In this document: piece by piece, positions 114-31,114 of the stretch
Numbering within the stretch: the first letter of the stretch is position 1
Layout: every line of letters starts with the position of its first letter
Program-made: the position numbers and the translations under genes
The notes under the pieces: generated by a model
What the model was told of the DNA's origin: nothing
Database searches by the model: none
The model's input: only the letters and a program-made list of their open reading frames with translations
DNA from: the human T2T-CHM13v2.0 reference genome, Homo sapiens
Reading direction: 5' to 3' (one strand)
NCBI RefSeq assembly: GCF_009914755.1
Contig: NC_060931.1
DNA: 64,000 nt

Positions 114-830
114 AATGCATTTTCAATAGTGCAACCAGACAGGTCTTTCTTCCCTCAAATGAGATCTTATCTCTCCCTTCTTAAAACAATCACAAGCTTC
201 AAAATGTCCTCAAAACAAAGTCTACACTCATTCATACAGCCTTAAACTCTATATTCTATCAAATGATCAACAACTATTTCTTGAATGCCTGCTATGTGCT
301 AGGAATGGTCTGGAATCTAAGGATACAGCAGTGAGCCAGACAAAGCTTCAGATATCAAGGAGCTTATGGCCCAGTGGGATATATACATAAACTGGGAAAT
401 ACACATAAACAAATAAACAAAAATATTCCAGATTCCAATAAGTATTATAAAGGTGGGGTAGAGAGTGTGCTGTGTCAGTCGGGGCATTCAGGTGATATTT
501 TAATAGAGAGGTCTGAATGTTCCAGCCAAATATATATCTAGCACACTCCTACTAACCTCAGTTCTCAGCTGAGACCTCCCCTGGGAAGTTTTCCTGTTGC
601 CTTGAGTCTGGGTTGGCAGCACCTCCCACACGCTCCATAGCATCGCGTGCTTACCCTGAACATTCACCACTCAGGGTGCTCATGCCCATTATTTGCCTGA
701 TTACTCCCCTACAGGAACAGGGTATCTTGTGCCTGGTTACATCCCTAGTGCGTGGTGCACAGTGCTTGCCATGCTTGAGTTGCTCAATATCCACTTCCTG
801 AATGGCAGATGAAGTAATTAATATTATTAA

Positions 831-2911: not shown

Positions 2912-3010
2912 CCTTAGTTCTTCCTTTGTATTAAAACTATCAAGAAGCTGTTGATAATGTCTATCTGTCATTTGTCGTAATAGGGACAGGAGACAAGCAA
3001 CAAACTCCCC
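2912..3010 (-). CDS. DOCK4: DOCK4 coding exon ~26 (99 nt), GEFVACLLSLLRQMTDRHYQQLLDSFNTKEELR
   Basis: Poly-T tract, then acttag|GGG; donor AGG|gtaagt. 33 codons. Confidence 0.96.
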
Positions 3011-4469: not shown

Positions 4470-7212
<2,743 letters not shown>

Positions 7213-8226: not shown

Positions 8227-9085
8227 TCCAATTACTAATGTATATTTTATCCATAATGTAATTTTCTTTGTTTTTAAGATATTTTAAGAATGTATCTGTA
8301 TGAAAATCCTAGACTCATAATTTATTAAAAAGAAATAAAAAGCCATCAGTGGCCAAGATGTACTTAGCTGCAGTGTGAAACTTTCTTTTGTATAAATCAC
8401 CTTGAAAACTCTGTAGTCTTCAGTGGCCATTTTATGTATAGATTGAGTATAATGGGAATTTCTACAAATGACTGTGTATAGCAAGGGTATTGGATGGCTA
8501 CAACTGTCTTCACGAAACCTATTATACACATACATTATTTTTTTCCACATATTTCTTACAGAATTAACCCAGGCCCATTTCCATACCCCACCACAAACCG
8601 ACATCACATGAAAATTTTAGATAAACACATCAGAGTAGCTGTCTTAGACCTGGCCTATGCCCAGAAGAATCACATGCTCCGTAAATGTTATTTAACAGAG
8701 TTACGAACGAGTAAGCATTTATAAATTGTAAGGAACTCTGGAGCTCCATTAGTCGAGAATGCAAGGCAAGTGGTCATTCATACTGCTTTATAAAATCTGC
8801 TTCTACCTATAATTAGACTTTTGAAAGGAACTGATCACAATGGTGCTTTTTTGTTTTTTTTTTCTAGCTAGGGAAAGCATTTTAAAGTTCAAAAAACAGT
8901 CGGTGGAAAAACAAAAAGTACAATCCTTTTAAATTTTAAAAATAAGGCCTCTGTTATCTGGAACTATGATACAGCAGACGCCAGTGCTCATGCTGGTGTG
9001 GCTGGGAGGCTGGGTAACAATCATGGTGCTTACAGAGCACTGGAAGAATTCACAATGGCACATTGTGGGATCTGCGTTTACTCAC

Positions 9086-9193
9086 AGTGTGTCTACTTGT
9101 CATGGGCACTTTTCCATATGTGTCTGCACAGACTGAAAAGGTGCTCAATGTAGTACTGCCATGTGAAGACTCCCTATTCAGAAAGCCTGTTCT
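9086..9193 (-). CDS. DOCK4: Candidate in-frame alternative cassette exon of DOCK4 (108 nt), RTGFLNRESSHGSTTLSTFSVCADTYGKVPMTSRHT
   Basis: Acceptor atttctttatcattttctcacag|AGA, donor ACT|gtgagt. 36 stop-free codons in phase 0, matching both flanking exons. No repeat recognised here. No transcript evidence is available. Confidence 0.5.
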
Positions 9194-9474
9194 CTGTGAG
9201 AAAATGATAAAGAAATTCAACAGATCTTCAGTCTCCAGAGAATGGATTTTGTGAAAGACAAGACCAGGGCATATTTCTCGCCATAGAATTATTATAACAA
9301 CAACAATACCTGAAGCACGTCTGCAACAATCATGATATGACTGTGACTTCTGCTGCTACCACAATGACTAACGGTCAGCATTTATTGAGTATCAGACCAG
9401 ATACTGTTTAAACACCTTTACAGATTTGATGAAATCCTCACACTAACTTTGAGATAAGTACAACTATTTTCTCT

Positions 9475-9783
9475 GATTTATTTATTTATTTATTTATTTA
9501 TTTATGAGACAGGGTCTCACTCTGTCACCTAGGCTGGAGTGCAGTGGTATGATCTCGGCTCACTGCAACCTCCATCTCCTGGGTTCAAGCCATTTTTGGG
9601 CCTCAGTCTCCTGAGTAGCTGGGGTTACAGGTACCCACCAACAGGCCTGGCTAATTTTTTTGTATTTTTAGTGGGGGTTTCAAGATGTTGGCCAGGCTGG
9701 TCTCAAACCTCTGCCTCAAGCAATACGCCCGCCTTGGCCTCCCAAAATGCTGGGATTACAGGCATAAGACACCGCGCCTGGCC
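9475..9783 (-). mobile_element. Alu with (TTTA)n tail, inserted in a MIR
   Basis: Antisense dimer with flanking tattttctctg TSD; MIR core aaacagaggcttagaga follows. Confidence 0.93.
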
Positions 9784-10389
9784 TATTTTCTCTGTTTTAA
9801 AGAAACAGAGGCTTAGAGACATTAGTAACTTGACCAACATCACAGAGTCAGTGCAATGACAGAGAAGGAATCAAGCTAGGTCTGTCTGAGTACTCTTAAA
9901 AAAAAAAGTCTTAAAGCATAAAAGCAAAGATGTCAAATAATTTATGTGTGTGTTTCATGGAAAATTTCACCCCACACACCTGGACAGTCTGGTTTCTCAC
10001 ACAGCAAGGGGTACCACAGAGCTATGCAGGAAGGATTCTCTTCATGTGATTTTCTTATAATTTAGTACACAGGACAATCACTCTGCCTGCCCTACCCCAC
10101 CTCCACCCACAGACCTGATTCACTGACTTCCTGAAGTCTCGTAATTGGCATTACTTATTACACTGTATGGCCTGAAGACCACATGTATCCCATAGAGATT
10201 TGGTGCACAACAACCTTGTACGCTCTGCACGTCGATAGAAAGCAGTTTAAAAAGTGTTTTAGCTTCTGATCTCAGGCAATCTTTAACTATGCCCAGCATT
10301 TGCTATGACTTTGTTTGCTTGCCATTATAACTTTCAAACTATGTAAGTTATATTGCCAGGAAGCAATTAAAATGTCACCATCAAAACCA

Positions 10390-11991
10390 CAGTGAAGGAG
10401 ACATCCTTCCTCTTCCACGTTGAAAGTGTAGCCATACTTCTCCCCTATTCCTCCTGCTAAGTACAACTAAAAACCTGAACATCAAATATAAAACAAACAG
10501 AAAAAGACTCTGACAGGAGGGGAGAGAGGGCAGACTGGCCAAGAACCTCCTTGGGACCTGAGCAAGGGCACGGTGTAGATTTCTTTGGATTTTCTTTTTT
10601 GCCTCGTATATTTCAAAGATGGGGCTGAAGAGGCCAGCAACTGTGAAAGACCAATAGTTGGTAGACAAAAGAAAAAGTCCCAAAAAACCTTATTTCTCCA
10701 GCCAAAGGACTAGGAAAGGGCAGCCCTGCAGGGCAATGCTTTTAGCCGCAGTTGCTCTATTCTAGCTGAACACCACAGAAAACTTTGTCCTCAGTCACCT
10801 GTTCACTGCAAAGGCTGAGTGAGGAGCCTAGACTTCCACCCTCATGAGGATGTAGTGAGGTGTCCCAACATCTCTCCTAGAGTGGAGCCAGAGAAGGTCA
10901 AACAGGGAGCAGGTACTTTCATACCCACGAGTCAGTGTTGGTGAAAACAATGGGAGGAGCCTGGGCTTCCACCCACAACTGGCAGTAACAAGTCACATTT
11001 TTTCCCTCCCCACTGGGGTGGTGTCAAAGAGGCCTAGTAGAGAGTCAGGACGGTCACCATGGCCCAGCAGTAACAAAGCCACTCCCACCACACTGGCAGT
11101 AGAGACCACATGCAGAGCCAGAACTTCCACCTCACCCAGCAGTAACAAGAAGCCCTCTTGCCTCAGCTGTCAAAGGAAACCAAGTGGCGAACCTGGATTT
11201 CTATCACTGTCTCACCATAACATGTAGGCACTGTTCCCCTGATGAGTGGTATCACACAAAGCCAGCTAAAACAGAAGGTTTATGTAAGATCCAGAGCTTT
11301 ATAATATAGAAATGTCTTGGTCATAAGAGAAAATAACACATCCTATCAAGAACTAAGAAAACCTCAAATTGAATGAAAAAGACAATCAATAGATGTCCAC
11401 ACTGCAACGTCAGATTGTTAGAATTATCTGACACATACAAAATGGTTAAGGGACTTACATGTAAAATATAAAACTATACTACTTTTAGGAAAGAAACTAG
11501 GAGATAACATTTAAGATACAGGGCTAGGCAAAAAGAGTCAAAAGCTTGAACTATAAAAGGAAATTAATAAACTGGACTTAAATGAAATTAAAAATTTTTG
11601 CTCTGCAAAGCTTGTTAAGAGGATGAAAAAACAAGCTACAGAGTAGGAGAAGATACCTGCAAACCACATATTATAAAAAGAAATAAAAACTCAACAGTGA
11701 AAAAACAATCCAGTGTAAAAAATGGCAAAAAGACATGAAAAGACATTTCACTGAAGAGGATATATAGATGGCAAATAAGTATGTGAAAAGTTGCTCAGCA
11801 TCATTAGTCATTAGGGACATGCAAATTAAAACTACAATAAGATATCACTACATAGCTATCAGAATGCTCTCCACTCCAAAAAAACGGGTAACACCAAATG
11901 ATGATGAGAGTATTGAGAAAGTGGACGATTCATAACTTGTATATATAGTAGAGCTACTATTTTCCATAGTGGCTATACCATTTTATATTCC
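10390..11991 (+). mobile_element. Old L1M (5' region plus ORF2 3' fragment) ending in a micro-inversion
   Basis: L1 ORF2 motifs agacatttcactgaagaggatata and atgcaaattaaaactacaataagatatcac. 5' boundary approximate. Confidence 0.75.
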
Positions 11992-13085: not shown

Positions 13086-13220
13086 AGTGACATCCTGGAA
13101 CTGGAACCGCATTGCTGAGCTGGATGGCTGAGGTCGGCTGGTGATCTCCAATATGGTCCTCAGCAGAATATCCAGCAAGCTGGCCACTATCACATCTATT
13201 TCCTCCAGCACAGATTTTTC
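13086..13220 (-). CDS. DOCK4: DOCK4 coding exon ~25 (135 nt), EKSVLEEIDVIVASLLD...MRFQFQDVT
   Basis: Acceptor ctcttaag|GAA, donor ACT|gtaaga. 45 codons. Confidence 0.96.
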
Positions 13221-28189: not shown

Positions 28190-29787
28190 GTGTGTTAATT
28201 TTTTAAATGAAAGGTCAGAAGTGTTAGGCTTAACCCTTTTACCTTTTGTTTTGAGTGGACAACTGGGCCCTCTTTTATTATAGATCTTTAGTTATACAGT
28301 TTTATATTGTCCCTCTTCTTTCCCCTCCAGTCAGACAGAATCAGCCTATTTTTGTGAGATGTACCAAGGCCCTTGTGAGGATCACACTCTCCAGTTAACC
28401 ACAACTCAAGATATCACGTCCTGTTCTCTGACACTGTCTGTGGAGCCTGCTGTTTGCATTTCACATCTTCTTTTCCTTCCGACATCTCCTCTTTCAACTA
28501 GACAACATAAATATGCCCATCAGTCCCCTAAGTCCACAGTTTCTGATTTAGAATGCCAAAGTCACTAGAAGCACTTTCCACGTTTCCCTAGCAGTATTGT
28601 GTAGTCACATGTAATTTAAACAGAAGGTACTCTGAGCCCTGGAAGGCTCTCAGGGACACTTCCTAGTTTTCCCCATGAAGATGGGCTCCTTCTTGATGTG
28701 TTCTGCCCAGCCCATCTTATACATCACAGTCTCTGTTTTCTTCAATGACGAGTTAGGAAGCAGCAAGCCACATCCTGCTGCGGCAGTGACAGAAGCCTTT
28801 TCTCTGTTGAACATCTGCACGTGCTAAGGATTCTGTTGATCGTGAGCCACTGTTGCTTCTCCATAATCATTCTCCATGTGTGGGACCTTCCCACACAACA
28901 TGAGCAGACAGGGTTTCCTCTTCTTCTCTTCCTTTTCCACGCCACCATATTCACAATTACCAGCTTCCCTACGCTGGCCCTGAGCCTCTCTTCCAGGGCA
29001 CTGGCACAGACCCTGCAGGGTCAACATTTCTTGGGTCTCATGAGTCCTTCCATCCCTTACCATAGTACATACTCTCATCAATTCCCACGGGACCCAACAT
29101 TCTTTATCCCGCATCACAGCAGGTTCTTCTCTGTGTATCTTTCTAGTCCTGATTTCTCTATTATCTATGGAGCATCAGGAACCAACAAGGAACTGGGCCC
29201 AAGGACAGATTACATTGCTCAGAGGCAATGAACACAAACCCCTATAATATTTTCCTTACATTTGAAAACAATTTTGATGACTGTCTTGCTCTTTTAGTGC
29301 AAGACTTTAACTTAACAAAGAATTATCTGGTCAGTGTGGGAGAAATATGGCAGAAATCAGCAATTCCTCTGAGACAGGAGTGAACTTTTCCTAGTGTGGT
29401 GAAAGCAGGGTTGGTGTTTGAGTTAAAGCAGGGTGCTCCGTTGGGACCTACATCTCCTGCACAGTACCTGTTCCCAACCCCGGAGAGATTCCTGAGTCAC
29501 TGCACAGAACCCTTAGGACTGAGCAGCAGAGTTGGAAAACCACTACAAGAAATATCTTTTCTCCAGGATATGTTTTTATTGGGAGAAATCGGAAGGTTGA
29601 ACTTTCTTTTACATTGTTTGAAGTGCTATTTCAGAAAAAAAAATAAGAAATATCTCAAAAGTCCTTCAACAGGAGAAAAAATAAATTAACTGTGATATGT
29701 TCATACAGTGGAATATCATACAACAGTAAAAAATAATGAAGTAGAGCTATATCTAGTGGCATGGAAAAATATAAAAGTATAATATTA

Positions 29788-30752: not shown

Positions 30753-31114
<362 letters not shown>

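What the first reader, a model, noticed from the sequence alone, without database searches (positions are those of the whole stretch)
9086..9193. Candidate 108-nt in-frame cassette exon in intron 25, not in the DOCK4 protein as I recall it
Seen: a pyrimidine tract and CAG acceptor (atttctttatcattttctcacag), a consensus donor (ACT|GTGAGT), and exactly 36 stop-free codons in phase 0, the phase of both neighbours (QDVT|GEFV). It would insert the Ser/Thr-rich peptide RTGFLNRESSHGSTTLSTFSVCADTYGKVPMTSRHT just after the Ser/Pro-rich stretch SRPQPSSS. GCATG motifs lie downstream on the transcribed strand (8989-8993, 8673-8677). Known: RBFOX binding to GCAUG downstream of an exon promotes inclusion. 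Inference: a tissue-regulated DOCK4 isoform with a phosphorylatable loop. It may already be annotated in minor transcripts; I cannot check.
Basis: partly seen in the sequence, partly recalled or inferred. Interest (0 to 1): 0.7.

Follow-up and report, generated by a model that had tools for sequence, protein, structure and literature searches.

The report
Minor in-frame DOCK4 exon, already modelled
A 108-base stretch inside a DOCK4 intron has splice signals and an open reading frame and already appears in one computer-predicted human DOCK4 protein; it is likely a rarely used, poorly conserved optional exon of an ordinary kind rather than a new regulated isoform.

Summary
In detail: 9086-9193 (minus strand) has 36 open codons in phase 0, a CAG acceptor and an ACT|GTGAGT donor. 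The exact exon25-insert-exon26 join already exists in a public record, Celera 'DOCK4 isoform CRA_d'. That record looks like an ab initio model, with 9 of 30 mapped pieces non-canonical, so it is weak evidence. None of 119 other vertebrate DOCK4 cluster representatives carries the peptide. Eight have unrelated inserts at exactly this junction. Together these resemble the human peptide but not one another. That pattern suggests homology-built gene models forced by a template protein that has the insert, so the exon is probably already in a reference protein set (inference). Segments this exon-like arise by chance at about 0.1 to 1.6 per 64 kb, depending on the donor rule. The two GCATG motifs are at chance level (5.9% of windows). 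The insert falls inside a predicted helix, not in the Ser/Pro loop. Splicing itself could not be tested. Verdict: likely a minor, lineage-restricted alternative exon; RBFOX control and phospho-loop are unsupported.

The parts
9086..9193 (-). Candidate 108-nt phase-0 cassette exon, 36 open codons, 13 of 36 Ser/Thr
   Evidence: identical peptide at residues 1161-1196 of P0004
9194..9216 (-). Pyrimidine tract and CAG acceptor; 30-nt AG-free zone; scores above 22 of 38 real DOCK4 acceptors
9080..9085 (-). Donor GTGAGT after exonic ACT; scores above only 2 of 38 real DOCK4 donors (3 of 38 when G at +3 is not penalised)
8989..8993 (-). GCATG (context AGCATG), starting 93 nt downstream of the exon; chance-level
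8673..8677 (-). Second GCATG (context AGCATG); chance-level
13086..13220 (-). Upstream exon 25, ends ...QDVT in phase 0; 3,892-nt intron to the candidate
   Evidence: hub annotation
2912..3010 (-). Downstream exon 26, begins GEFV...; 6,075-nt intron from the candidate
   Evidence: hub annotation

Best explanation
The 108 nt are an open, phase-0, splice-site-flanked segment of DOCK4 intron 25 that is likely a rarely included, poorly conserved alternative exon, probably already held in a reference protein set. Inferred mechanism: the acceptor is as good as an average DOCK4 acceptor, but U1 would pair almost only with the intronic half of the donor, so exon definition across 3.9-kb and 6.1-kb introns would be weak and skipping the default. 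When included, the exon adds no stop codon, so the mRNA would escape nonsense-mediated decay. It would give DOCK4 plus 36 residues, predicted to split a helix of the helical-repeat region, and is most likely near-neutral. Shown: the sequence features, one public protein with the join, and absence from 119 other representatives. Inferred: splicing, inclusion level, prior annotation, effect on the protein.
For: (1) The exact join is in P0004. (2) 8 of 119 other DOCK4 proteins have inserts at this junction, all of different length (6-39 aa); no other site has more than 3 inserts of mixed lengths outside conserved clade-specific ones. (3) The human peptide matches these 8 jointly: sum of z 12.7-14.3, reached by 0 of 3,034 other open intronic 36-mers and by 0-1 of 4,000 shuffles. 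None of the 8 matches the others (centre-test p 0.05-0.96). The two turtle inserts score 13 against each other although their flanks are 42/44 and 40/43 identical. (4) z >= 3 for 3 of 8 inserts at the junction against 1 of 77 elsewhere, Fisher p = 0.002. Other models of the same species lack the insert (P0083/P0090, P0036, P0080, P0067). (5) P0006 has no other indel against the reference, so its template was not the junk-laden P0004. (6) Ensembl's similarity pipeline aligns other species' UniProt proteins with GeneWise, and distant templates can give poorly supported splice structures (PMC4919035, passages and section 11). (7) Acceptor average, donor weak.
Against: No RNA, EST or peptide evidence could be consulted. 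The template protein was not found: searches returned only P0004 and only two unrelated repeat proteins. The databases are clustered at 90% and 50%, which would hide a near-full-length isoform, but that is an excuse and not evidence. 5 of the 8 inserts are not individually significant in local alignment. That the models come from homology pipelines is inferred from their UniRef-only source and from recalled accession patterns. Both structure models are low-confidence (mean pLDDT 48 and 50). Under the strictest splice rule the candidate is unique in 253 kb per strand, and its Ser/Thr count is in the top 1% of open intronic frames; both fit a more purposeful exon.
Confidence: 0.55

Rival explanations
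1. A pseudo-exon that is essentially never spliced and exists only in computational gene models.
For: Chance rate of about 1.4-1.6 per 64 kb under the matrix rule; 14% of intronic 108-mers are open in a given frame. The only direct record, P0004, also uses RPL7AP42 pseudogene sequence and other intronic pieces and skips 3 canonical exons. No paper describing it turned up.
Against: The star pattern points to a near-canonical template protein with only this insert; such an entry usually rests on a cDNA or EST (own knowledge). It is the only segment passing the strict rule.
Confidence: 0.25
2. A tissue-regulated, functional exon (RBFOX-enhanced) kept in primates or part of the mammals, adding a phosphorylatable disordered segment.
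For: Frame-preserving; intronic donor half perfect; GCAUG 93 nt downstream (only 8.9% of 100-nt windows have one). 13 of 36 residues are Ser/Thr. In the model with the insert, its last four residues take over the first helical turn, so the fold may be rescued (low confidence). Clustering at 90% hides close mammalian isoforms, so primate conservation is untested.
Against: GCATG count at chance level. No matching peptide in 119 representatives, including three colobine-monkey proteins, nor in a targeted search. The bat model's insert is a poor match, which argues against an intact bat orthologue. The junction is inside a predicted helix, with no insert in 111 of 119 representatives.
Confidence: 0.15
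3. An old, fast-evolving exon shared by amniotes, of which the lizard, wombat, bat and turtle inserts are true orthologues.
For: Inserts at the same junction in 8 species, jointly similar to the human peptide; the lizard insert is 35 aa with a similar spacing of SS-G, TF, C and GK.
Against: True orthologues should resemble each other, above all two turtles or two lizards; they do not. Lengths run from 6 to 39 aa. Four of 8 start with Val, as read-through of a GT donor would give.
Confidence: 0.05

Closest known systems
DOCK4 isoform CRA_d, partial [Homo sapiens] (NCBI record, P0004)
   Same: Contains the identical 36 residues between exon 25 and exon 26.
   Different: Looks like an ab initio model: 9 of 30 mapped pieces are not in the canonical map and 3 canonical exons are skipped; not evidence of expression.
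Species- and lineage-specific new internal exons (Merkin et al., bioRxiv 10.1101/009282; abstract and outline read)
   Same: Thousands exist, mostly from unique intronic sequence and alternatively spliced; this segment is unique in the genome search and absent from other species' representatives.
   Different: The abstract says most lie in 5' UTRs; this one is coding and frame-preserving. Its age and inclusion were not measured.
Known DOCK4 alternative exons: exon 49 isoform (PMC8292242, passage) and a neural microexon in DHR-2 (bioRxiv 10.64898/2026.09.05.749416, passage)
   Same: In-frame alternative splicing of DOCK4 is established.
   Different: Those lie in other parts of the protein and have experimental support; neither passage concerns intron 25.
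RBFOX-enhanced cassette exons
   Same: GCAUG downstream of the exon (RBFOX binding to GCAUG: search listing and abstract starts).
   Different: Motif count at chance level, no UGCAUG hexamer, conservation and binding untested.

Membership tests
In-frame cassette exon | Canonical AG/GT with pyrimidine tract | tested here: met
   acceptor average, donor weak among DOCK4 sites
In-frame cassette exon | Length a multiple of 3, open in the neighbours' phase | tested here: met
In-frame cassette exon | Junction reads or cDNA including and skipping it | not testable with these tools
   No human RNA data available; only indirect evidence
Conserved alternative exon | Orthologous peptide in other vertebrates | tested here: not met
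   0 of 119 representatives (best 120 of 289 hits listed); close mammalian isoforms may be hidden by 90% clustering
Conserved alternative exon | Nucleotide conservation of exon and flanks (phyloP/PhyloCSF) | not testable with these tools
   No vertebrate genomes other than the window's own
RBFOX-regulated exon | GCAUG downstream above background | tested here: inconclusive
   2 motifs in 420 nt; 5.9% of windows have as many
RBFOX-regulated exon | CLIP binding and inclusion change on knockdown | not testable with these tools
   none
Transposon-derived exon | Exon overlaps a repeat family | tested here: inconclusive
   Single genomic match, no SRP/Alu-like or other Rfam hit over the exon; old repeats would be missed and no repeat library was available

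The most novel reading that the evidence does not exclude
A primate- or human-lineage exon that is switched on in one tissue, swaps the first turn of a solenoid helix in DOCK4 and loops out about 50 Ser/Thr-rich residues as a new phospho-regulated surface, with no description found in the papers searched.
Probability: 0.1. Interest if true: 0.55.

Novelty: already known. Interest (0 to 1): 0.18.

Why it matters
Minor in-frame alternative exons are common, so on the best reading this adds little biology. If it were highly included in one tissue it would give a Rac activator linked to neuronal and vascular biology an isoform that I found no paper on. A side result is useful for annotation: inserts at this junction in several reptile, marsupial and bat models look like artefacts copied from a human-like template and should not be read as conservation.

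Tried and rejected
Intronic structured RNA: Rfam over intron 25 gave 14 matches at E <= 1, all below gathering score and none over the exon; the region folds no better than shuffles (z -0.81). Solved structures: no relevant match for the peptide (one chance hit at E 0.78); no DOCK4 chain among the 20 matches to the DOCK4 profile; the model's best fold matches are DOCK5 and DOCK2. The 50%-cluster library gave 2 repeat proteins with 5-10 matched stretches, judged chance. P0004 as proof of expression was rejected. The inserts in 8 species as conservation were rejected. Repeat origin: no second copy found. Literature: nine searches on DOCK4 splicing or this exon listed nothing on it. I read passages in PMC4844685, 10.64898/2026.09.05.749416, 10.1101/2025.01.04.631330, PMC12425497, PMC6440020 and PMC8292242; none concerns this exon. 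Six supplements of PMC12425497 had no DOCK4 row and one PDF was unreadable. Supplements of other papers and of bioRxiv preprints were not seen and could list the exon. Four Ensembl/UniProt identifiers recalled from memory as possible DOCK4 isoforms gave 0 papers and remain unverified. The first donor matrix penalised G at +3 unfairly and was redone. The Atlas search and earlier findings were not available, and about 200 kb of the gene's 5' introns were not in the background set.

Full report
Observation. Exon 25 ends in QDVT and exon 26 begins with GEFV, both in phase 0. The numbering fits a 53-exon gene counted from the 3' end. The insert lies 10 residues after SRPQPSSS, not directly after it.

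Is it more than chance? I trained splice-site matrices on 38 acceptors and 38 donors of DOCK4 itself (6 junctions could not be placed and 1 odd intron was dropped). The acceptor beats 22 of 38 real ones; the donor beats 2 of 38, or 3 of 38 when G at +3 is not penalised. In 252,766 intronic bases per strand, 9 sense segments (candidate included) and 6 antisense segments were at least as good, a multiple of 3 and open in phase 0: about 1.4-1.6 per 64 kb averaged over frames. With a strict GTRAGT donor only 2 sense and 0 antisense remained, and with an AG-free zone of 20 or more only the candidate. So it is among the best-looking intronic segments of the gene under a rule chosen after seeing it, and ordinary under a general matrix. 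A 108-nt intronic frame is open 14% of the time; 13 Ser/Thr in 36 is reached by about 1% of 2,816 overlapping open frames. Both GCATG read AGCATG; 5.9% of 420-nt windows hold two or more and 8.9% of 100-nt windows hold one.

Database record. A search of 5.8 billion clustered proteins found the peptide once, in 'DOCK4 isoform CRA_d, partial [Homo sapiens]', joined exactly exon 25-insert-exon 26. Mapped back on the 290 kb held, 9 of its 30 pieces are absent from the canonical map, two of them in the RPL7AP42 pseudogene, and it skips 3 canonical exons. It shows that a gene finder picked the same exon, not that cells do.

Other species. Of the best 120 of 289 relatives listed, the 119 besides CRA_d have a 21-residue linker in 103 cases, a shorter one in 8 and a longer one in 8, from sharks to monkeys. 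None carries the human peptide. Clustering at 90% would hide close isoforms, so primates and most mammals are not excluded.

The 8 longer ones (bat, wombat, two lizards, two turtles, a frog, a chimaera) all insert 6-39 residues at exactly QDVT|GEF. They are unlike each other: the two turtle inserts score 13 while their flanks are 42/44 and 40/43 identical, and none works as a centre (p 0.05-0.96). The human peptide does work as a centre: sum of z 12.7-14.3, matched by 0 of 3,034 other open intronic peptides and 0-1 of 4,000 shuffles. Three of 8 have z >= 3, against 1 of 77 inserts elsewhere (p = 0.002); 5 of 8 are not significant alone. Different species match different pieces of the human peptide. 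Real orthologues would resemble each other. A star centred on the human sequence is what I would expect if annotation pipelines aligned a template bearing the insert and filled it with the best intronic look-alike. Ensembl describes such a pipeline and its failure with distant templates (PMC4919035, passages and section 11). The lizard model P0006 has no other indel, so the template was a near-canonical DOCK4 with this one insert, not CRA_d. Inference: the exon is already in a reference protein set, and no intact orthologue was available to the aligner in those species. I did not see the template itself.

Protein context. In a model of a monkey DOCK4 without the insert (P0007, mean pLDDT 48, local 67-85), the junction after residue 867 lies inside helix 857-880; the Ser/Pro loop is 851-856. 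In a 158-residue model with the insert (mean pLDDT 50), residues 73-124 are low-confidence and without secondary structure up to 121, and the last four insert residues start the helix. The insert is therefore predicted to displace about three helical turns rather than lengthen the loop. Both models rest on 20-21 sequences and are weak. The fold matches DOCK5 and DOCK2; no DOCK4 structure was among the matches.

Other readings tested. No Rfam family lies over the exon, it has no unusual structure and no second genomic copy was found.

How it most likely works. Average acceptor, donor pairing with U1 almost only through +1 to +6, long flanking introns: mostly skipped, occasionally included. Inclusion keeps the frame, so the message would survive and give a longer protein with a disturbed helix. 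Shown: sequence features, database record, absence in representatives. Inferred: everything about splicing and function.

Known kinds and novelty. It meets the sequence criteria of an in-frame cassette exon, fails the test for a conserved exon among the proteins seen, and cannot be filed as an RBFOX target. It resembles lineage-specific new exons (10.1101/009282, abstract). Described DOCK4 variants concern exon 49 (PMC8292242, passage) and a microexon in DHR-2 (10.64898/2026.09.05.749416, passage). Nine searches listed no paper on this exon; the library lacks most subscription papers and does not search supplements. 'Already known' here means present in a public sequence record and probably in annotation, not functionally described.

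Verdict. Real feature, ordinary kind. Odds: minor annotated exon 0.55, unspliced pseudo-exon 0.25, regulated functional exon 0.15, ancient exon 0.05. Interest 0.18.

Noticed in passing
window 9500-9784 (-): Alu-like element (two SRP-like arms at 9504-9651 and 9667-9782) about 300 nt upstream of the acceptor, with a TAAA-repeat tail and an 11-nt target-site duplication CAGAGAAAATA on both sides.
   Followed up: partly
window 9370-9470 (-): Looks like the 3' part of a MIR repeat into which the Alu inserted; the name is recalled, and searches found no second copy.
   Followed up: partly
window 9051-9067 (-): Perfect 7-bp inverted repeat with a 3-nt loop just downstream of the donor; the region as a whole folds no better than shuffles.
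   Followed up: partly
window 10799-10876 (-): A second exon-like segment in intron 25: 78 nt, open in phase 0, donor CAG|GTGACT.
   Followed up: no
window 31047-31109 and 6218-6403 (-): Further open exon-like segments whose peptides look Alu-derived (likeness recalled).
   Followed up: no
window about 28962-29165 and 654-815 (-): Other intronic pieces used as exons by the CRA_d model; probably gene-finder artefacts.
   Followed up: no
L006 (G000:C7:113070001-113080000), intron after reference residue 1443: Unusual donor GTATCCGC; possibly misplaced by my script or minor-spliceosome-like; dropped from training.
   Followed up: no
L009, G000:C7:113102418-113102444 (-): 27-nt in-frame microexon (exon 33 by count), present in some orthologue models and absent in others.
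   Followed up: partly
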